Origin: an uncultured Candidatus Saccharibacteria bacterium
GTDB lineage: Bacteria > Patescibacteriota > Doudnabacteria > UBA920
Reading direction: 5' to 3'
Assembly (NCBI GenBank): GCA_964477745.1
Contig: CAYZEI010000001.1
Span: 64,393 to 128,392 of the forward strand
Length of the DNA stretch: 64,000 nucleotides
Shown here: one piece after another, positions 5,474 to 58,608 of the stretch
How positions within the stretch are numbered: the stretch's first letter is position 1
Layout: each line of letters begins with the position of its first letter
Position numbers and translations under genes: made by a program
The notes under the pieces: model-generated
The model's database searches: none
What the model was told of the DNA's origin: nothing
The model's input: only the letters and a program-made list of their open reading frames with translations

Positions 5474-7093
5474 TTAAACCAATTTAAGTTTTTTATCCGC
5501 TAAAACCAAGGCGATGCCGAATATCAACAAAATGTAGCCCACCGGCATTCCGGTTCTCGGTAAAGTTGTGGAAGCTCCTAATACTTGAGGAACCGGATTA
5601 CTGGTTGCCACAGCAGGAACATCTGTTGATGCTCCTAATACCATAGGCGACCCCGTGGTTACTAAAGTTGGAGTAACACCGCCACCGGAAGGAATTCCAC
5701 TTCCACCACTACTTCCTCCCCCGCCGCTTCCTCCGCTACCGCCACCTGATATTGTGGACACGCTTAGCTCAACACCAGTGACTTCCGGAGAGCCGTGAGA
5801 AACCGGGCGGAAAAAATAAGTTGAGCCGGCGGTTAATCCGGAAATAACTACGCTATGAGTGGTGATTAAACTCGCATCTTCTACCGAAGAATTTGCATAA
5901 CCATAATTAGCATCACTTCCTAAAACCGAATGAGAAACCGTATCGTAAACTACGCGACTGGTTGCCGGATGGTTTGTGGTCCAAGTAATTGTGGCCGAAG
6001 TTTGACCAACTTCTCCCAATTGTTCACCGGAAATTTCCAAATTCCAAGTATTGGTAATTACACACTCTGTTTGAGAATCAACCAATACTCTTGTCGAACC
6101 CTCCGCGCAAGACTCACTAAAAGTTGTTGCATACCCTTCCGGTCCGGATTCGCTAACGGCATATCGGCCCGCAGTAAGCGTATAGGAAGTGCCGGTAACC
6201 GAGCCGGGCTGAGGACTGCCGACAACATCTTCAGAAACCTCTCCGACAGTTTTAACATGAATACTAAAATCAGATGAAGTTGCTGTTCCGCCAACAACCA
6301 ACTTTGAGACCTTCAAAGTTCCGGTTGAACCTTCGCCTTCTCCCCCACCGCTGGCTTTATCGGTAGCTTCCACTGTACAGGCGTTAATATCTCCTACTGC
6401 TATATTTCCGCTACAACCGGAAGAATAAGTAAAATCATACCCTGCGTCTGACGTGGAAATATCGTAAGCACCGGCATCCATGGTTATTAACGTCCCTAAG
6501 GAAGAGCCGGGAAAAGATGCTGAGCTAGGATTGGTGGCCGTAACATTAAAAGTAAAATCGCCGGCGGTTTTGGTTCCGCCATTGCTATTGGTAACGTTCA
6601 CCAACACATTTACACTGGGTGCATATGCCGTGTTGGTTACGGTACAAGTTTTAGTGTCTTCCCCTAGAGTGATTGAAGAGGAACAATTATCATAAGATGT
6701 AATATAGCCCGGAACAGCAACTTCAGTAACCCGATAATTTCCGTTCAGTGAAAAATTAAACGGCACACCGGTTTCGCTACCGACAAAATCCTGATTCACA
6801 ATTAAAGCTCCCGGCATAGTTGGGATGTATCGTAAATGCAAATTAAAATCACCGGCAGTTTTGGTACCGCCGAAATTATTTACCACATGCTTTACCACCG
6901 TTAAATTGGACACGGCAACAGCCTGAACCGGAGTTCGTCCGTACATAACTATTAAGGCGACAATTAATAACCCGCCGACTAATTTATTCCAAGCAATAGG
7001 CTCGTAAGAATTCCTTACGGCATCACCATAAACTCTTCGTACTGCAATCCCTTGCTTGGTATGTTTGATTGTGATTTTTGATTTTTTTATCAT
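5474..7093 (-). CDS. Cell-surface protein with C-terminal LPRTG sorting signal and repeated NGGTKTAGDF beta-domains
   Basis: N-terminal TM/signal, Gly/Ser linker, LPRTG + hydrophobic stretch + KKLKLV tail. Confidence 0.7.
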   Translation of the reverse strand: MIKKSKITIKHTKQGIAVRRVYGDAVRNSYEPIAWNKLVGGLLIVALIVMYGRTPVQAVAVSNLTVVKHVVNNFGGTKTAGDFNLHLRYIPTMPGALIVNQDFVGSETGVPFNFSLNGNYRVTEVAVPGYITSYDNCSSSITLGEDTKTCTVTNTAYAPSVNVLVNVTNSNGGTKTAGDFTFNVTATNPSSASFPGSSLGTLITMDAGAYDISTSDAGYDFTYSSGCSGNIAVGDINACTVEATDKASGGGEGEGSTGTLKVSKLVVGGTATSSDFSIHVKTVGEVSEDVVGSPQPGSVTGTSYTLTAGRYAVSESGPEGYATTFSESCAEGSTRVLVDSQTECVITNTWNLEISGEQLGEVGQTSATITWTTNHPATSRVVYDTVSHSVLGSDANYGYANSSVEDASLITTHSVVISGLTAGSTYFFRPVSHGSPEVTGVELSVSTISGGGSGGSGGGGSSGGSGIPSGGGVTPTLVTTGSPMVLGASTDVPAVATSNPVPQVLGASTTLPRTGMPVGYILLIFGIALVLADKKLKLV

Positions 7094-50393: not shown

Positions 50394-50822
50394 ATGCCTA
50401 AAGGATTTATTGCAAAAATTGAATTTACGATTAACGCAACACCGGAAAAAGTTTGGGAAGCTTTAACTAAGCCGGAAATAGTAAAAGAGTACTTATTTGG
50501 CACCAATTTGGTAACTGATTGGGTTGTTGGCGGGCCAATTAGCTACCAAGGTGAATGGGAAGGCAAGCCTTACGAAGACAAAGGAACGGTCTTGGAATTT
50601 ACTCCACCTTCCAAAATAGTTTCCACTTACTGGTCCAGTATGGGCGGTTTGCCGGATGCGCCGGAAAACTACAACACTTTAACTTACGAGTTGGAAAGTG
50701 TGGATGGTGGCACCAAGCTTACCCTCCTGCAAGATAATAACTCCACCGAAGAAAAACGAGACCACAGTCAGCAAAACTGGACCTTGGTGCTAAATAAAAT
50801 GAAAGAGATTTTGGAGAAATAA
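50394..50822 (+). CDS. SRPBCC (AHSA1/START-like) domain protein
   Basis: PEKVWEALTKPE motif. Confidence 0.65.
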   Translation: MPKGFIAKIEFTINATPEKVWEALTKPEIVKEYLFGTNLVTDWVVGGPISYQGEWEGKPYEDKGTVLEFTPPSKIVSTYWSSMGGLPDAPENYNTLTYELESVDGGTKLTLLQDNNSTEEKRDHSQQNWTLVLNKMKEILEK

Positions 50823-50869
50823 CTACAAATCAAAACACCCCCGACCGTATCGGGGGTGTTTTTAAAAAA

Positions 50870-51535
50870 CTACTTTATTTTAAACACTCCAGCTACGGTA
50901 AAAATAATTAGGGCGCAAAATATATAGGTTAAAGGCAATATTATAATTGGCGCGAAATATTTAAAAATGGAGTTAGAGCGATTGGCGGGTAACCGGTCTT
51001 GAATGCGTAAAAATGGTACCGCATTCATGGCATGATAATTTATTAACACATACGGAATAAAAATTAACAAACCAGGATTGGCTAAAAAAGACCGACTGCC
51101 ATCACCCAAACCCTGGCCCAAACCAAATAAAATTATAAACTGCCAGGCATTGTATTGGTACTTATTAATTAAATACCACACCACTCGGAAAATTACATAG
51201 TAAGCCGGAGCAGTAAGCAAAACATCAATGGCATAATTTTTTACCATATCCCCGACAGCCATTCCGGCGGTAAAACGCAAGCTCGGAAGTATTGGGCTGT
51301 AAATCATGTAAAAACCTTCTACAATGGAGGCGGAGATTACGCAAAATAAAATAAACTCTTTGCGAATATTGGTTGCGGTGCTTTTACCAAACTTTTTATA
51401 CGCCCACAAACTTAAAGCCAAATAACCCAAGATTAACATATGGGTAACATTGTCAGCAGAAAATTTACCTTTAGCAAAAACCAAGACAAATACCAGAATG
51501 GCCCAAACTAAATAAACTTTAAAATATTTTGGCAT
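50870..51535 (-). CDS. Integral membrane protein, unknown function
   Basis: Hydrophobicity. Confidence 0.45.
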   Translation of the reverse strand: MPKYFKVYLVWAILVFVLVFAKGKFSADNVTHMLILGYLALSLWAYKKFGKSTATNIRKEFILFCVISASIVEGFYMIYSPILPSLRFTAGMAVGDMVKNYAIDVLLTAPAYYVIFRVVWYLINKYQYNAWQFIILFGLGQGLGDGSRSFLANPGLLIFIPYVLINYHAMNAVPFLRIQDRLPANRSNSIFKYFAPIIILPLTYIFCALIIFTVAGVFKIK

Positions 51536-51541
51536 AAATTA

Positions 51542-52006
51542 TTAATTAATTATTTCTATTTGAGTTTTTGTTTCATCGATGTCTCCTCCTACAATCCCCA
51601 CCCCAGGATAAGCCCATACACTAACAACATATTTACCAGGATTTATTTCTGAACCGAGCATGGCAGTATAAGATCCTGTATTCGCAATACCTTTAACAAG
51701 ATCATAAGAATTAAGTTTATCACAGACCATTTCGCCATTTTCTTTAAAACAACCTTTTTGCCTTTCGCCAATAATACTGATTCTGACCAGTTTATTTGTT
51801 TCCTGACTTTGTTTGCTAGAAGTCCAAGCTATGGTCTGACTTGTACCAATTTTCCAAACTTCGCCACCTTTAGGATTAGTGATGGTAAGTTTTTCGTTGG
51901 AGGGCTGAGTAACAGCCGACGTTGGTATATTTTAAGGCGCAACCTGCTTATTACATCCGGCAGCAAGCAAAAAAACAATTGAAGCTCCCAATAAAATTTT
52001 TTTCAT
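51542..52006 (-). pseudogene. Lipoprotein gene (lipobox LAAGC; Kre9/KNH-like ITNPKGGEVWKIGTSQTIAWT domain) interrupted by in-frame TAA at codon 25
   Basis: MKKILLGASIVFLLAAGCNKQVAP-TAA(51934..51932)-continues in same frame to 51542. Confidence 0.5.
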
Positions 52007-52830: not shown

Positions 52831-52914
52831 TATTTAAAAAACACAATCAAATGATTGTGTTTTTTAAAACGTAAAGGATCACGTCCCCTTTTCCACATTG
52901 GCTAATTCCTGCCT

Positions 52915-52990
52915 ACCGGCGACTGGACAATTCGCGCGAATTGTCCAGTCGCCAAAATACGTAAGTGATGGGATATGTCCCCATTCACAT
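52915..52990 (+). repeat. Direct repeat copy 1 containing 36-nt perfect palindrome GGCGACTGGACAATTCGCGCGAATTGTCCAGTCGCC (52918..52953)
   Basis: Seen directly; partner at 53330..53412. Confidence 0.8.
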
Positions 52991-53066
52991 TCTTGGCAAA
53001 GACACTAAAAGTTGTGGTAAAATATACGGACTAACAATTATCCTTTAAAAAAGGAGTACCAAATTT

Positions 53067-53282
53067 ATGAAGCAAATGACATGTGCCCAAATGGGCGGAC
53101 CTGCAGAGTGTAGCTTTACGCTCTCCGGCAACACTGCCGAAGAAATGGTTAAAAACGGCTTTGACCACGTAATGCAAGCACACCCTGAAATGGGACAAAA
53201 GATTCAAAGCAACAGTCCGGAAGAAAATGAAAAATGGATGGCTGGCTTTCGAGCCACATTCGACGCCATCCCGGAAATGTAA
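53067..53282 (+). CDS. Small DUF1059-like protein (MKQMTCAQMGGPAEC...)
   Basis: AGGAG RBS; extended -10 TGGTAAAAT upstream; terminator 53296..53325. Confidence 0.5.
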   Translation: MKQMTCAQMGGPAECSFTLSGNTAEEMVKNGFDHVMQAHPEMGQKIQSNSPEENEKWMAGFRATFDAIPEM

Positions 53283-53329
53283 AAAGAATTTAAAAAACTC
53301 ATCCAAATTGGATGAGTTTTTTTATACGA

Positions 53330-53412
53330 ATCAGCGCTGGACAATTCGCGCGAATTGTCCAGTCGCCAAAATACGTAATTAAATATGAGGTTAATGGGCC
53401 ATGTCCCCATTT
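53330..53412 (+). repeat. Direct repeat copy 2 with 34-nt near-perfect palindrome (53334..53367)
   Basis: Shares palindrome + AAAATACGTAA...ATGTCCCCATT with copy 1. Confidence 0.8.
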
Positions 53413-53456: not shown

Positions 53457-54098
53457 CTATTGTTTTTTAGGAGACTCGGAATACTCTTCTATTGTTTTAT
53501 CCTGAACAGAGTCAACTTTAAAAAAGGGTGTTTTTTTGCCTTGTTGATCTTCTGCATCTACAACTGTGCCAACAATTTGGTATTCTCGAGTTCCTTTTAG
53601 ACCAGAACCTTTAGGGTCTTCCTTTAAGAAGACATATTGCGATTCACCACCATCTGCGATCATATCTATACTAGGGGAATTGGGCTCAGGATTAGCACGT
53701 AATTTAAAGAAATCCGTTCTTGTAACGACGGTTTTCGTATAATATACTCGGGAATTGCCAATCAGAGCACTGTCTAATTCAAAACGTTTTACATCTTTAG
53801 GACCAAGGTATGTTGGGATGCCCCTAGTTTTTATATAACCTTTATCGCGGTAAGCATTTAAACCGTTATTAACTAAGTCTTCCACTTTTGTCTCCGGCAT
53901 TTGTTCTATTTCTTTTCGAGAAATACCGCACGCAGCCATTGCCAAACCTAATCCCGCAGTTAAAACCAATCGTTGAAAACGGCTCCAAAACTTAGCCACT
54001 TGCGGATTGTTGAGTGACTCTCTTAATTCTTTATTTCCTGGTATTTCGGAAGCCGTTTGGGATTGCTCCGTATTTTGAGATGGATATTTTTCACTCAT
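53457..54098 (-). CDS. Putative lipoprotein, unknown function
   Basis: Signal/TM segment with LAMAACG lipobox-like motif. Confidence 0.45.
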   Translation of the reverse strand: MSEKYPSQNTEQSQTASEIPGNKELRESLNNPQVAKFWSRFQRLVLTAGLGLAMAACGISRKEIEQMPETKVEDLVNNGLNAYRDKGYIKTRGIPTYLGPKDVKRFELDSALIGNSRVYYTKTVVTRTDFFKLRANPEPNSPSIDMIADGGESQYVFLKEDPKGSGLKGTREYQIVGTVVDAEDQQGKKTPFFKVDSVQDKTIEEYSESPKKQ

Positions 54099-54330
54099 AT
54101 AATATTTTTAATTAGCTTAATCTTAACACACAGTAATTATATGGAAAAGAGAGTTAAAGACGCTATACGAAATGTTTAAAAGATAATGAGGACATGACCA
54201 ATTTTATTTCAAACAAAAAAACTCCACCCGGATGGGTGAAGTTTTTTGTGGTAGTCTTTTATAAATAGAATCTAAACACCTTTATGAAGAAAATACAATA
54301 ATGAACAACGGTGATACTAGTCTTAAATAG

Positions 54331-55287
54331 TTAGCCATTTTCAAACATATCCTTGTTTGCCCTAAAATTTTCTGGCCATTTATGTTTTAAAGTGGCAACT
54401 ATGGAAGACTTTAAATTAAAATCGTTTGTTTCAAAATAATCACGAACCAAAATTGCCAACTGCTCATTTTCTTCATTATCCTTTGAAATCCCCAAAGCTG
54501 CCAATACCCTTAGTGATTCATTCCCAAAAGCCCTTTCAATATCCCTTAAGTGCATCATTTCTCCTGTAAACAAACCCCTTTTGAATCTCTCCCATACTTT
54601 TTCGGGGTTCTCATTTTTTATTTCAGCAACCTTACCTATAATAACACCTATAGTTTCAACATAATAATCATAAATGTCTAACACTTTGGGAATCCCTTTA
54701 GGCTCAAGCTTTAACTCGGAAACTAATTCTTCTTCATGTTTATGATATAGTTCGTTTTCGAGTTTGGTAGTTATGGCTTCAACAAAACCATCAAAATGTG
54801 AATGTTTGTCTTTTGGATGCTCAATTCCATACCCCACTCTGTACTGTTTTAGGCTCTGCTCTTTTAGAGAAGCAAAATATTTCTGGTGTGATAAAGCGTG
54901 AATTGTTTCGTGAATTATTGTTGAACAAATATCTAATTCATCCCAGCCTTCAAAAGTATCATCATAAACATATATTCCGTCTTCTGGTAAACTCTTATAA
55001 AAAGCAACTGTTTTATGATTAGGAAAATGCTGTGCAAATACAGTAGGCTTCAAAAAATGAAATCTGTGAGGGGGGAACGGCGCAATAGTGGCAATCCCCA
55101 ATTTTTTAAACTCATCTTGCAAATACAAATTCACTAACTCAATCAGCTTTAATTGTTTCTGAGTTTTTTTTGTTTCTCCCTCCAAAATTTTAGCGCCTAC
55201 TTCTTTTTTTCTATCAATCTCTTCCCGCACGGCTTTTTCTAGTTCGGGATGAATGTCTTTGCCAACCAGGCCGTATTCTTTACTCAT
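54331..55287 (-). CDS. Hypothetical protein with HExxH motif (IIHETIHALSH)
   Basis: Possible zinc-dependent hydrolase; otherwise no recognised domain. Confidence 0.45.
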   Translation of the reverse strand: MSKEYGLVGKDIHPELEKAVREEIDRKKEVGAKILEGETKKTQKQLKLIELVNLYLQDEFKKLGIATIAPFPPHRFHFLKPTVFAQHFPNHKTVAFYKSLPEDGIYVYDDTFEGWDELDICSTIIHETIHALSHQKYFASLKEQSLKQYRVGYGIEHPKDKHSHFDGFVEAITTKLENELYHKHEEELVSELKLEPKGIPKVLDIYDYYVETIGVIIGKVAEIKNENPEKVWERFKRGLFTGEMMHLRDIERAFGNESLRVLAALGISKDNEENEQLAILVRDYFETNDFNLKSSIVATLKHKWPENFRANKDMFENG

Positions 55288-55298
55288 TTTTAATCCTT

Positions 55299-55514
55299 TT
55301 AATTTTTGATTAAGCGATTATACGAAGATTTTATTAACCTATAATCTAAGTAGATAAAACCAATTGCTATTAATATACTCGTGGCGTTAGCACCTATCGA
55401 TTCAGCACCGTCTATAGGGTAAAAAGTTAATACTGAAAACATAACAAAAATGGTTAAAGCGATTAAAATAATCGATGTTGAGTAGAAAATTATTTGATTA
55501 TAGATATTTTTCAT
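55299..55514 (-). CDS. Small two-TM membrane protein
   Basis: Hydrophobicity only. Confidence 0.3.
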   Translation of the reverse strand: MKNIYNQIIFYSTSIILIALTIFVMFSVLTFYPIDGAESIGANATSILIAIGFIYLDYRLIKSSYNRLIKN

Positions 55515-55698
55515 ATTTTAGATATTAATTTTTACATATCCAGTATATACCTAAGCCAAATCGTTGTAAATAAAGCTTATATAAGGGATTCATGGGGAAA
55601 TTTTACCCTTGAAAAATTTGAGCATTTATGGTAGAATATCAAAAGTTATTCGTTTATAGTGTCATCTTCTATAATTGATGCATAAACTTACTAATCAT

Positions 55699-55773
55699 GG
55701 CGCTATCATCTAACGGTTAGGATAAGTGGTTTTCATCCACTAAATCGGGGTTCGATTCCCCGTAGCGCTACCA
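55699..55773 (+). tRNA. tRNA-Glu (anticodon UUC), CCA encoded
   Basis: Anticodon loop TTTTCAT, T-loop GGGGTTCGATTCCCC, acceptor pairing. Confidence 0.85.
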
Positions 55774-55897
55774 CTAACAACCTCATTCCCCGGAATGGGG
55801 TTTTTAGTTTGCTTTTATCGGTAAAGGAATGGTTTTCTAAAATTTTGGCATGATTGTAGCATTTCTTAATTAGGCCTATAATTAAGGTAAATTAGTT

Positions 55898-57028
55898 TTG
55901 ATTCTTATTTTACAATCTACAATGCCTACAAAAAAATATAAAATAATACTTGATACAAATTTTATATGGAATGACCAAAATAACGGATTGGGAGTTATTT
56001 TTAGTGAACATCTTAATCAACTATCTGCATTTATAAAAAAACATGATTTGATGGCTTCTGTACAGATCTGTTTGCCGGAAATGGTCATCAAGGAGAGGGT
56101 TGCCCAGAAAGTCCGTAAGGCTGATGAATTTAGAAGAAATAGCATGCTAGCATTAAAAAGTTTAGAAACAATAAACCTAAAAGTTGGAAATAAAAAATTT
56201 GAAATAATCGACCTTGAAAAAGCATTTAAAAAAAAGGCTGCGGATATAGTAAGTACCAATAATATTGAAGTAATACCAATCCCCAAAATTAAAAATCATG
56301 ACATTATTAATCGTTCGTTAAGAAAGATTCCCCCTTTTTCGAAAAAAAATACTGATTCAGGCTATAAGGATACAATTATTTGGCTATCTATTTTGGAGGA
56401 TGCAAAAAAGTCAAAAGATTTTGAATATATTTTTTGCACAGAAAATACAAATGATTTTATAATCCCAGAATGCGCAGATGAATTTAAAAAAATTACAAAA
56501 ATCAATATTGAATTTGTAAATAATTTAGATGAGCTAAAATTATTTTTAGACAAGGAGCTAATTTTAAATTTAGAGCTTAAAAAACTTAATGAGCGTATAA
56601 CCGATGAGATAAAACAACATTTGGGAAATCTAAACATTGAATTTAATAAATTTGTTAGAAAAGAACCCGACCCTTTCCCACGAAATCCTTATACATCATT
56701 AAGGGCTTTTGATTCTATTTTAGGAGAAGAAAATAAAGGCGCAATTAAAGGTTATAATGTTTTAAATTTTGCACCAACTAACATTGACCAAAAAAATAAA
56801 TATCAATTTAGCATTGAGGGGGACTTAATGGTTGAAGAGGTATTTGATAATTCAAAAAATGAACCCTTTTTGGTTTATAGGCCTAGTTTTGGGGTAGATA
56901 CTAAGCCTATTACAACGCAGTGGCGCACGCACTTTATATGGAATGATCAAAATAAAACTTTTACTTCATTATTTACAAATCGGCCTTACCCGCCGGTGGG
57001 AATGGCACACTCTTGGGGAATGATTTAA
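55898..57028 (+). CDS. PIN-like-domain protein (DUF4935-like), 376 aa, very AT-rich
   Basis: N-terminal KYKIILDTNFIW PIN-like start; ORFan-like composition next to tRNA. Confidence 0.5.
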   Translation: MILILQSTMPTKKYKIILDTNFIWNDQNNGLGVIFSEHLNQLSAFIKKHDLMASVQICLPEMVIKERVAQKVRKADEFRRNSMLALKSLETINLKVGNKKFEIIDLEKAFKKKAADIVSTNNIEVIPIPKIKNHDIINRSLRKIPPFSKKNTDSGYKDTIIWLSILEDAKKSKDFEYIFCTENTNDFIIPECADEFKKITKINIEFVNNLDELKLFLDKELILNLELKKLNERITDEIKQHLGNLNIEFNKFVRKEPDPFPRNPYTSLRAFDSILGEENKGAIKGYNVLNFAPTNIDQKNKYQFSIEGDLMVEEVFDNSKNEPFLVYRPSFGVDTKPITTQWRTHFIWNDQNKTFTSLFTNRPYPPVGMAHSWGMI

Positions 57029-57099
57029 TACAAAACACTAATTCAATGAATCATGGATAACCAATCAATAATCAACATTTTAAAGTTAACTAAATTCTA

Positions 57100-58608
57100 A
57101 TGACAACACTCTCAACAAAAAATGTATATTCTATAGGTTTAATATCCCTTGTTTTAGGGCTGGCTTTTACCTATTTATTTTTTGACAAAGTGCCGGGAAT
57201 TTCATTGGTAATTTATGTGGCACTAATACTGTCCGGGCTGTTTGGATTACTGACGTATTTTAAAATACAAAACCGTAAAATTATTGCCTATTATTTATTG
57301 CCCCTGTTATTTTATTCCTTTATGGTCAGCGTGCAAGACAATGAATTTTTAACTTTCTTTAATTTTGTAATGACTTTGGGTTTGCTTATGCTATTGTCCA
57401 GCCATTTAGTCGGGCAAAGCGTTAAAAATTTCTTAATTTTGGATTATGCCAAAACTGCTGTACTATTACCGCTAAAAATTATTGGCAATGCATTTAACGG
57501 TTTAGTGAGAATGCTTTCCGTTGGCAAAAACATAAAAGACAACCAACACTCATCCCAAATAGTAAAAGGGGTGCTATTTACCGTGCCCATTGTAATATTC
57601 TTTTTACTGCTCTTTAGTTCCGCGGATTTAGCGTTTAACCATTTTGTTTCCGGCCTGTTTAATTTCAATTTTAATTTAGACGAAAACACCATTCCTCAAA
57701 TTTGGTGGACGGGAATTTTTACTTTTGTGTGGCTTGGCGCCGGTACATACATTTTAGAAAATTCAGATGGTAGCGAGATCGTGGAAGTAGTGGAAAAAGT
57801 ACCCACTTACCGATTTGGGAATATTGAAGCGGGCATTCTTTTTACTACGCTCAATGTTCTGTTTTTAACTTTTGTAATAGTGCAAATAAAATATTTGTTT
57901 GCCGGGCACAGTGCTATTACGGCTTTAGGTTTTACTTACGCCGATTACGCCCACAAAGGCTTTGGGGAATTAGTGACTGTTGCCTTGTTTACTTTTGGAA
58001 TAATTTTTCTGGCAGATGTATATATAGAGAGAAAAGAAAACAGATCCGGAGTTCTGTTTAAAAGCCTAACCGGCTTGCTAATAATTTTAGTGCTGGTAAT
58101 TATTGCTTCGGCTTTTACTCGGCTAAATATTTACGAACAAGCCTATAGTTTTACGCGCCAAAGAATTTTAGTGCAAGGCTTTATTCTGTGGCTGGCTGTG
58201 GTGTTTTTATGGCTAAGCTATAAAATTATGTTTGGCACGAAAACCAGACAATTTATTTTTGGTATATTTTTGTCTGTTATTGCTTTCTTTGTAGTATTTA
58301 ATTTATTTAATCCCGATGCCTTTATTGCCAAAAAAAATATTGCTAAAGATTTGAGCACCGGCAGACTAGATACCAAATATTTATCCATTCTGTCGGCCGA
58401 CGCCATTCCAGAACTTGTTCCTCTACTTAATATGCCAATGGCTAAAGACATATACGGCAATCCCCTGCCTCACGAAGTGGCTGTGGTTTTAAAAAATTAT
58501 CATGACACAAACCTTACGCAGTCTTGGCAATCCTATAACTTTTCCCGCGCCAGGGCTAAAAATATAATTAACAATAACTGGGATTTAATTTCCAAATTAG
58601 CCCAGTAA
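57100..58608 (+). CDS. Polytopic membrane protein (~12 TM), unknown function
   Basis: Hydrophobicity pattern. Confidence 0.5.
   Translation: MTTLSTKNVYSIGLISLVLGLAFTYLFFDKVPGISLVIYVALILSGLFGLLTYFKIQNRKIIAYYLLPLLFYSFMVSVQDNEFLTFFNFVMTLGLLMLLSSHLVGQSVKNFLILDYAKTAVLLPLKIIGNAFNGLVRMLSVGKNIKDNQHSSQIVKGVLFTVPIVIFFLLLFSSADLAFNHFVSGLFNFNFNLDENTIPQIWWTGIFTFVWLGAGTYILENSDGSEIVEVVEKVPTYRFGNIEAGILFTTLNVLFLTFVIVQIKYLFAGHSAITALGFTYADYAHKGFGELVTVALFTFGIIFLADVYIERKENRSGVLFKSLTGLLIILVLVIIASAFTRLNIYEQAYSFTRQRILVQGFILWLAVVFLWLSYKIMFGTKTRQFIFGIFLSVIAFFVVFNLFNPDAFIAKKNIAKDLSTGRLDTKYLSILSADAIPELVPLLNMPMAKDIYGNPLPHEVAVVLKNYHDTNLTQSWQSYNFSRARAKNIINNNWDLISKLAQ

What the first reader, a model, noticed from the sequence alone, without database searches (positions are those of the whole stretch)
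52915..53412. DUF1059-like small gene flanked by direct repeats carrying a 36-nt perfect palindrome
GGCGACTGGACAATTCGCGCGAATTGTCCAGTCGCC (52918..52953) is a perfect 36-nt palindrome. Its partner (53334..53367) differs by one base, and both are followed by the same ~40 nt (AAAATACGTAA...ATGTCCCCATT). The two copies sit immediately before the promoter and immediately after the terminator of a 71-aa gene. A palindrome this long is either the operator of a dimeric regulator or the terminus of a small mobile cassette or MITE.
Basis: seen in the sequence. Interest (0 to 1): 0.55.

Follow-up and report, generated by a model that had tools for sequence, protein, structure and literature searches.

The report
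Orphan ArsR-type operator pair, candidate-phyla bacterium
The 36-base palindrome is the conserved DNA docking site of a small ArsR-family regulator found across the tiny "candidate phyla radiation" bacteria; here two copies bracket a small metal-binding-protein gene, the regulator gene lies outside the window, and nothing marks it as a transposon-like element.

Summary
A perfect 36-nt palindrome sits at 52918-52953. A second copy at 53334-53367 has a 1-nt deletion. Both carry a related tail, and they bracket a real 71-aa gene with invariant Cys/Cys/His/His.

The 20-nt core recurs in 77 public loci, nearly all Patescibacteria (CPR). The only recurrent neighbour is an 88-aa ArsR/SmtB-family protein. 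Every such gene with enough flank is bracketed by two palindromes 341-463 nt apart, and the upstream copy supplies the -35 (TTGTCC-N16-18-TATAAT).

Five ArsR homologues were picked by protein alone (53-66% identity). All have palindromes in this arrangement; four show both copies. Their half-sites co-vary with the protein (GGACAATTCG / TACCAATTCG / GAACAATTC). So the palindrome is that regulator's 12-2-12-type site.

The MITE or mobile-cassette reading is not supported:
- no recombinase nearby and no target-site duplications
- two to six copies per genome
- none in the viral or plasmid collections searched
- the closest relative carries the same gene without palindromes

Control of the 71-aa gene is doubtful. 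Site 1 lies about 60 nt upstream of its -35, and homologues elsewhere lack the site.

Unexplained:
- sites never occupy divergent promoter regions
- every site lies near a gene's 3' end
- some sites are split by nested hairpins
- one site lies in frame inside rsmI

The parts
52833..52868 (.). Bidirectional intrinsic terminator of the upstream 99-aa gene. In the relative L080 it is duplicated, and the two copies flank a Fic / 71-aa / SRPBCC block.
   Evidence: (I5)
52918..52953 (.). Palindrome copy 1: perfect 36 nt with core CTGGACAATTCG-CG-CGAATTGTCCAG. Inferred binding site of the CPR ArsR-subfamily protein.
   Evidence: family evidence
52954..52985 (-). Tail copy 1 (AAAATACGTAAGTGATGGGATATGTCCCCATT). 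A degenerate copy of the tail module, missing the 12-13 nt that hold the minus-strand -10-like TATTTAAT.
   Evidence: (D6)
52993..53023 (+). Promoter of the 71-aa gene: TTGGCA, 19-nt spacer, then extended -10 TGgTAAAAT (53015-53023). Homology with the relative starts at 53002, inside this promoter.
   Evidence: read
53067..53282 (+). 71-aa DUF1059-like 'small metal-binding protein' gene with invariant C6, C15, H34, H39 and W57.
53292..53322 (.). Bidirectional intrinsic terminator of the 71-aa gene.
   Evidence: (I8)
53334..53367 (.). Palindrome copy 2: perfect 26-nt core at 53337-53362, with a 1-nt deletion in the outer left arm.
53368..53411 (-). Tail copy 2. It is a promoter-like module read on the minus strand towards the palindrome: AATGGGGACATGGCCCATT (53393-53411) followed by TATTTAAT (53378-53385). 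It is 89% identical to the sequence immediately upstream of a 97-aa Zn-ribbon gene in L080 and resembles the region upstream of palindrome plus arsR in L040.

Best explanation
The palindrome is the cognate DNA site of a CPR-specific, 88-aa ArsR/SmtB-family winged-helix protein. It is a two-fold symmetric 12-2-12-type operator, CTGGACAATTCG-NN-CGAATTGTCCAG.

Shown by comparison:
- In relatives this protein's gene is flanked by two such sites (O1-arsR-O2).
- O1 contains the -35 of the arsR promoter, which implies autorepression by occlusion.
- Further solo sites are scattered a few per genome.

In this window the regulator gene is absent, presumably elsewhere in the genome. The two copies belong to a duplicated 70-80-nt module. 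The module is a palindrome plus an A/T-rich promoter-like tail that points at the palindrome on the minus strand. It sits at a synteny breakpoint on the edge of a variable, low-GC region.

Inferred:
- ArsR dimers occupy both sites.
- Because neither site overlaps the 71-aa gene's promoter, any control of that gene would have to work through a loop or roadblock between the two sites, as the O1-arsR-O2 bracket may do.
- It is about equally likely that the two sites are orphan promoter-operator remnants left by rearrangement.
For: (1) The 20-nt core occurs in 33 genome and 44 metagenome loci, almost all Patescibacteria.

(2) The only recurrent neighbour family is an 88-aa protein, with 24 adjacencies. 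It matches Pfam HTH_5 at 35.6 bits against a cut-off of 22. Its nearest solved relatives are HlyU, CzrA, SmtB, PagR and BigR.

(3) The arsR-facing side reads TTGTCC-N16-18-TATAAT at 6/6 in five loci, about 57-61 nt from the start codon.

(4) Every arsR homologue with enough flank has a site at both ends, 341-463 nt apart. This includes degenerate or split second copies.

(5) Five homologues were chosen by protein only (53-66% identity; six loci, two of them near-identical). Four show both copies; L084 has a perfect copy at the gene's 3' end and only a degenerate one upstream. The half-sites differ in step with the protein clade, while CAATTC..GAATTG is invariant.

(6) On 82 distinct sites, 14 of 20 symmetric position pairs change on both sides. 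The covariation score is 0.263 against 0.118 for shuffles, and none of 500 shuffles reached it. The central 2-4 nt are free (GCGC, GTAC, GCAC, TATA, CATA), like a spacer.

(7) The tail matches promoter-proximal sequence of other genes in relatives.

(8) Near-identical assemblies L078 and L079 confirm the layout. The apparent loss of copy 1 in L079 is a run of N.
Against: - No binding experiment exists, and no arsR homologue is in the 64-kb window.
- Site 1 is centred about 61 nt upstream of the -35 of the 71-aa gene. Site 2 lies beyond the gene's terminator, between two convergent gene ends.
- The same gene in the closest divergent relative (L075, L080-L082) has no palindrome nearby. Nor do three homologues chosen by protein.
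- Family-wide, sites away from arsR fall in 26 tandem, 20 convergent and 0 divergent intergenic contexts. A plain promoter operator would not be distributed that way.
- Copy-specific symmetric outer arms fit a hairpin or template-switch process as well as protein contacts.
Confidence: 0.72

Rival explanations
1. Mobile cassette or selfish palindromic element. The palindromes would be recombination ends, and a palindrome-gene-palindrome unit (usually arsR, here the 71-aa gene) would move or be exchanged by recombination inside the core. Solo palindromes would be what remains after excision.
For: - The window and its relative L075/L080 lose synteny exactly at the palindrome. In L080 the homologous pair of sites encloses a different cargo, a zeta-toxin gene plus a 60-aa gene.
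- arsR brackets sit in unrelated genomic contexts.
- In L025, L015, L040 and L006 the arms of neighbouring palindromes pair across copies at least as well as within a copy. The outer-to-outer score is 8/10 in L025. 28% of copies have mixed arms.
- Sites avoid divergent promoter regions and sit at gene 3' ends, as REP elements and MITEs do.
- One copy lies in frame inside rsmI.
- Some copies are split by nested hairpins.
Against: - No transposase, integrase or RAYT is next to any copy or within 41-64 kb of the window.
- There are no target-site duplications.
- Genomes hold 2-6 copies each.
- The viral and plasmid collections searched hold none.
- The block that moves with the 71-aa gene (53002-53295) excludes both palindromes.
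- The rsmI copy replaces resident codons rather than adding 30 nt.
- Site sequence co-evolves with the ArsR clade and the bracket is old. That indicates a selected binding site, not a recent parasite.
Confidence: 0.15
2. RNA-level hairpin. The palindrome would act in transcripts as a 3'-end stabiliser, a terminator or an RNase III substrate, and protein binding would be secondary.
For: - The hairpin is very stable: -40.3 kcal/mol for copy 1, z = -7.4.
- Every copy lies within roughly 12-110 nt of a gene's 3' end.
- Outer arms stay complementary to about 34 nt through copy-specific changes.
- In L023, L034, L048, L057 and L065 the site fills a 36-nt gap between two co-directional genes.
Against: - No U-tract follows the hairpin.
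- Flanks are pyrimidine-rich on the 5' side and purine-rich on the 3' side on both strands, the reverse of an intrinsic terminator.
- A hairpin needs no conserved sequence, yet 12-20 nt are invariant across phyla and track the ArsR clade.
- In the window both copies lie downstream of canonical terminators, so they are probably little transcribed.
- Nothing matched in Rfam.
Confidence: 0.08

Closest known systems
ArsR/SmtB-family repressors with 12-2-12 inverted-repeat operators (SmtB-smtA, CzrA-czr, ArsR-ars; also the non-metal members HlyU, BigR and PagR)
   Same: - A small winged-helix dimer of this family, by Pfam HTH_5 and PDB matches.
- A two-fold symmetric site with a free central spacer.
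- The site overlaps the regulator's own -35, implying autoregulation.
- The window's cargo is a small Cys/His protein, which recalls SmtB controlling the metallothionein SmtA (resemblance from established knowledge only).
   Different: - The classical alpha3N and alpha5 metal-site residues are not conserved, and there is no conserved Cys, so the signal is unknown.
- The site is a much longer and more perfect palindrome (26-46 nt), conserved across CPR phyla.
- The regulator gene is flanked by two sites.
- Solo sites sit at gene 3' ends rather than in promoters.
- In the window the site does not overlap the cargo's promoter.
REP elements and their RAYT transposase (REPtrons)
   Same: - Short extragenic palindromes.
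- A bias towards the 3' ends of genes and convergent gaps.
- The associated gene is itself flanked by two copies.
   Different: - The flanked gene encodes an 88-aa ArsR-type DNA binder, not a Y1/HUH transposase.
- Genomes hold 2-6 copies, not hundreds.
- The palindromes are perfect and highly conserved.
Two-operator repression loops (lac O1-O2 at 401 bp, gal OE-OI, deo)
   Same: Two identical sites lie a few hundred bp apart (341-463 nt), one at the promoter and one within or after the gene.
   Different: Looping by this protein family is not established. No higher-order oligomerisation has been shown here.
AspA of Sulfolobus plasmid pNOB8 and B. subtilis RTP/Ter (small winged-helix proteins that bind a few palindromic sites beside their own gene for segregation or fork arrest)
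   Same: - A small wHTH protein.
- A long palindromic site next to its own gene.
- A handful of sites per replicon, placed independently of promoters.
   Different: No ParA/ParB partners or replication context were seen. This comparison is recalled from the literature and was not tested here.

Membership tests
ArsR/SmtB operator-regulator pair | Regulator is an ArsR/SmtB-family winged-helix protein | tested here: met
   Pfam HTH_5 at 35.6 bits against a cut-off of 22. PDB matches to HlyU, CzrA, SmtB, PagR and BigR at E 3e-6 to 2e-3. The gene was found in related loci, not in the window.
ArsR/SmtB operator-regulator pair | Site is an inverted repeat of about 12-2-12 with a free centre | tested here: met
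   The site reads CTGGACAATTCG-NN-CGAATTGTCCAG. The centre varies among CG, GA, TG, TA and others.
ArsR/SmtB operator-regulator pair | Site overlaps the promoter of the regulator or of the regulated gene | tested here: inconclusive
   Met for arsR in relatives, where TTGTCC serves as -35 with TATAAT 16-18 nt downstream. Not met for the 71-aa gene in the window: site 1 is about 61 nt upstream of its -35 and site 2 lies after its terminator.
ArsR/SmtB operator-regulator pair | Site sequence and protein co-vary (cognate specificity) | tested here: met
   Three protein clades carry three half-site variants, with one exception, L005.
ArsR/SmtB operator-regulator pair | Physical binding and ligand-dependent release | not testable with these tools
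   Needs EMSA, footprinting or ChIP.
MITE | Terminal inverted repeats enclosing a short non-coding body, flanked by target-site duplications | tested here: not met
   The unit is a bare palindrome. The two window copies are direct repeats around a coding gene, and the flanks show no duplication.
MITE | Many dispersed copies per genome | tested here: not met
   Two copies in 64 kb. Genomes represented by several loci hold 3-5 exact-core copies.
REP/RAYT | Associated Y1 (HUH) transposase flanked by the repeats | tested here: not met
   The flanked gene is ArsR-type. No transposase was found next to any copy.
REP/RAYT | Extragenic, 3'-end-biased location | tested here: met
   Contexts counted: 26 tandem, 20 convergent, 0 divergent.
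Integron gene cassette (attC) | attC with R''/L''-L'/R' cores and extrahelical bases, plus an integron integrase nearby | tested here: not met
   The palindrome is perfect and has no GTTRRRY cores. No tyrosine recombinase lies in 41-64 kb.
DUF1059 (PF06348) small metal-binding proteins | Match to the Pfam model above its gathering score | tested here: inconclusive
   19.1 bits against 21.1. One homologue at 62% identity carries PF06348. C, C, H and H are invariant.
Known RNA families (Rfam 15) | Covariance-model match | tested here: not met
   Only chance-level hits.

The most novel reading that the evidence does not exclude
The palindromes would be more than operators. They and the 88-aa ArsR-type protein would form a CPR-wide system in which a few protein-bound perfect palindromes mark gene 3' ends and bracket small genes. 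The sites would act as transcriptional insulators or roadblocks and as preferred recombination points. Those points would shuffle gene cassettes (arsR, the small metal-binding protein, toxin genes) and attract nested hairpin insertions. This would be a REP/RAYT-like arrangement built on a transcription-factor fold.
Probability: 0.15. Interest if true: 0.7.

Novelty: new variant of a known kind. Interest (0 to 1): 0.42.

Why it matters
CPR (Patescibacteria) bacteria have genomes of about 1 Mb and very few transcription factors, and almost nothing is known experimentally about how they regulate genes.

This work gives a protein-site pair that is conserved and co-evolving across several CPR phyla, with a precise and testable site. 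It offers a direct entry point for DAP-seq, EMSA and reporter work.

The flanked-gene architecture and the strict 3'-end placement of solo sites are unusual for an ArsR regulator. They may point to insulation or recombination roles.

For this window specifically, the finding turns a 'possible MITE' into an orphan pair of regulator sites at a rearrangement hot spot.

Tried and rejected
- Rfam scans of the region and of loci with split palindromes gave nothing above chance.
- Viral contig scans with the exact core and with a free-centre pattern gave zero hits. A plasmid search also gave none.
- tblastn of five ArsR homologues against the window found no gene.
- The apparent natural deletion of palindrome 1 in the near-identical contig L079 is a run of 10 N, an assembly gap.
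- I tested whether the pairing of palindrome 2 with its tail arose by deleting a UvrD / 97-aa segment as arranged in L080. The flanking 213-aa and 235-aa proteins are unrelated, so orthology is not supported.
- Intrinsic-terminator reading: no U-tract, and the flank composition is the wrong way round.
- The 71-aa gene as a conserved regulon member: rejected, because four independent homologue contexts lack the site.
- Integron, MITE and REP-RAYT membership each fail a defining feature.
- Literature searches for ArsR with Patescibacteria or Saccharibacteria and palindromes, and for DUF1059, found no description.
- The PDB has no sequence relative of the 71-aa protein.

Full report
OBSERVATION. 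The sequence is as described. A perfect 36-nt palindrome lies at 52918-52953. The second copy, at 53334-53367, has a perfect 26-nt core and a 1-nt deletion in the outer left arm. An exact 42-nt direct repeat spans 52923-52964 and 53337-53378. Both copies are followed by a related tail, and copy 1 lacks 12-13 nt of it. Shuffled versions of the window never contain the core. CAATTC-N4-GAATTG occurs nowhere else in the 64 kb.

The copies bracket a 71-aa ORF (53067-53282). The ORF has an extended -10 promoter (TGgTAAAAT, 53015-53023) and a canonical terminator (53292-53322). It is a real gene: 73 homologue clusters at 51-96% identity, called 'predicted small metal-binding protein' by JGI. C6, C15, H34, H39 and W57 are invariant. 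Its Pfam DUF1059 match is just below threshold.

WHAT THE PALINDROME IS. The 20-nt core GACAATTCGCGCGAATTGTC was scanned against one genome per species and against JGI metagenomes. This returned 33 and 44 loci, almost all from Saccharibacteria, Doudna-, Uhr- and Wolfebacteria or unclassified Patescibacteria. Clustering the flanking proteins gave a single recurrent family, an 88-aa protein beginning MSKRWTIIFKALGNINRIKII, with 24 adjacencies. The remaining neighbours are unrelated housekeeping genes.

The 88-aa protein belongs to the ArsR/SmtB family. It matches HTH_5 above threshold and resembles HlyU, CzrA, SmtB, PagR and BigR in the PDB. Upstream of its gene the palindrome's TTGTCC serves as a -35, with a perfect TATAAT 16-18 nt downstream. 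That is the geometry of autorepression.

Every homologue with enough flank carries a second site just after its stop codon, 341-463 nt from the first. In some loci this second copy is degenerate or split.

THE DECISIVE TEST. I chose five ArsR homologues by protein similarity alone (53-66% identity) and fetched their contigs (six loci, two of them near-identical). All have palindromes in the same arrangement. Four show both copies. L084 has a perfect copy at the gene's 3' end and only a degenerate one upstream. The half-sites differ with the protein clade:
- TTACCAATTCG-NN-CGAATTGGTAA in one clade
- TTGAACAATTC(T/C)ATAGAATTGTTCAA in another
- CTGGACAATTCG-CG-CGAATTGTCCAG in the window type

CAATTC..GAATTG stays invariant. 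The clades differ in the recognition helix..KATSQHL..KSTSRHL and ..KATSNHL. There is one exception, L005.

On 82 distinct sites, 14 of 20 symmetric position pairs change on both sides. The covariation score is 0.263 against 0.118 in shuffles, and none of 500 shuffles reached it. The central 2-4 nt behave as a free spacer. This is the classical 12-2-12 layout of ArsR/SmtB operators (established knowledge of that family). I conclude that the palindrome is this protein's cognate site and that the O1-arsR-O2 bracket is ancient.

THE WINDOW'S COPIES. No arsR homologue lies in the window.

Site 1 is centred about 61 nt upstream of the -35 of the 71-aa gene. Site 2 lies beyond the gene's terminator, between two convergent gene ends. 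Simple occlusion of that promoter is therefore excluded.

The tail is a recurrent module in its own right. On the minus strand it reads AATGGGGACATGGCCCATT..TATTTAATTACGTA and points at the palindrome. In relatives the same module has three placements:
- directly upstream of the start codons of Zn-ribbon genes (L080, 89% identical over 45 nt; L028, L032)
- directly upstream of the start codon of a 78-aa gene (L014)
- upstream of palindrome plus arsR (L040, L001)

These are documented. The repeat unit is therefore a promoter-like element plus operator. Copy 1 has lost the -10-like part.

Two near-identical assemblies confirm the layout (L078 at 99.9%; L079). The gap at site 1 in L079 is a run of N.

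The closest divergent relative (L075 and L080-L082, 82-94% identical) is syntenic up to 52875. It carries the same 71-aa gene (53002-53295, 92%) in a different setting: Fic gene, 71-aa gene, SRPBCC gene, with no palindrome beside it. It has a duplicated copy of the 99-aa gene's terminator. At the position homologous to site 1 it has a split palindrome, ACTGGACAATTC-[39 nt]-GAATTGTCCACT, plus tail. That is followed by a zeta-toxin gene, a 60-aa gene and a full palindrome.

Three further homologues of the 71-aa gene, chosen by protein, have no such palindrome within 3 kb. The gene is therefore not a conserved regulon member. The window's bracket is a product of local rearrangement at a synteny breakpoint, beside a low-GC stretch with a tRNA-Glu and a PIN gene.

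No recombinase or transposase lies between 41 and 64 kb.

WHAT REMAINS ODD. Across distinct sites not adjacent to arsR, contexts are 26 tandem, 20 convergent and 0 divergent. Every site lies within roughly 12-110 nt of a gene's 3' end. This is unlike a normal regulon and resembles REP elements.

Complementarity of the arms extends beyond the conserved core, to about 34 nt, through copy-specific changes. The flanks are always pyrimidine-rich on the 5' side and purine-rich on the 3' side. That is the opposite of an intrinsic terminator.

In some arrays the arms of neighbouring sites pair across copies.

Some sites are split exactly at the centre by structured inserts. Several inserts belong to a second hairpin family, CCCCAGTAG..CTACGGGG(TAAAC).

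One Wolfebacteria copy lies in frame inside rsmI, replacing resident codons rather than adding length.

These features keep alive a minority reading in which the sites double as recombination or insulation points. Template-switch correction of quasi-palindromes is a known mutational process and could also produce the copy-specific symmetry without any function.

COMPARISON AND VERDICT. The system works like an ArsR/SmtB repressor-operator pair and meets that family's testable features at family level. Binding and the inducing signal are untested. No canonical metal-site residues are conserved.

It fails the defining features of MITEs, REP/RAYT elements and integron cassettes. Nothing similar was found in Rfam, IMG/VR or PLSDB, or in the literature searched.

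It is a new variant of a known kind. It is of moderate interest as the first well-defined regulator-site pair spanning CPR phyla. Its architecture is unusual: the regulator gene is flanked by two sites, and solo sites are biased to gene 3' ends.

Noticed in passing
L011:5105-5150 (Wolfebacteria MAG JAKEFG010000008.1): A 30-nt version of the palindrome lies in frame inside an intact rsmI gene. It encodes LLLDNSRELSS where E. coli RsmI has LEDIVAVLGES, and it adds no length. This looks like short-patch replacement rather than insertion.
   Followed up: partly
L001:499-560; L060:263-320; L075:1228-1290 and 130-235; L003:5880-5920: Some palindromes are split exactly at the centre by 35-45-nt structured inserts. 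Several inserts belong to a second hairpin repeat family, CCCCAGTAG-loop-CTACGGGG(TAAAC). That family also occurs on its own in L014, L028, L065 and L075. None is in the window, and Rfam has no match.
   Followed up: partly
window 53393-53411; L028:2950; L032:2644; L080:10970; L014:6605; L040:522: The quasi-palindrome AATGGGnCATGnCCCATT recurs immediately upstream of genes for Zn-ribbon (Top1-type) proteins and upstream of palindrome plus arsR. It may be a separate promoter or operator element.
   Followed up: partly
window 51542-51730 (minus strand): The 62-aa ORF is the C-terminal remnant of a 154-aa secreted or lipoprotein-like gene that is intact in the relative (L075:4122-4586). In this genome the gene appears truncated.
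   Followed up: no
window 50822-50874 against L075:5257-10209: The relative carries about 5 kb of extra DNA between the AHSA1 gene and the 221-aa membrane-protein gene. The window has only about 50 nt there.
   Followed up: no
L080:4860-4895 and 6776-6811 (equivalent to window 52833-52868): In the relative, the terminator of the 99-aa gene plus about 40 nt is duplicated as a direct repeat around a 1.9-kb block of Fic, 71-aa and SRPBCC genes. This suggests insertion or deletion by recombination between terminator copies.
   Followed up: partly
L075:2290-2345 (minus-strand reading): A different 30-nt palindrome, TTTCACGGTTATGTCAACATAACCGTGAAA, lies between the Fic gene and the 71-aa gene, with an extra half-site nearby. 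It is probably the operator of another regulator.
   Followed up: no
window 54000-58000: A low-GC stretch (0.325-0.33, against about 0.42 elsewhere) contains unannotated 213-aa and 318-aa genes, a tRNA-Glu (55699-55773) and a PIN_12 protein gene (55898-57028). It looks like a variable island starting at the palindromes.
   Followed up: partly
L079:261-270: A short-read assembly of the same strain breaks at palindrome 1 (10 N). Long perfect palindromes can be lost or gapped in metagenome assemblies, so copy counts from MAGs are lower bounds.
   Followed up: yes
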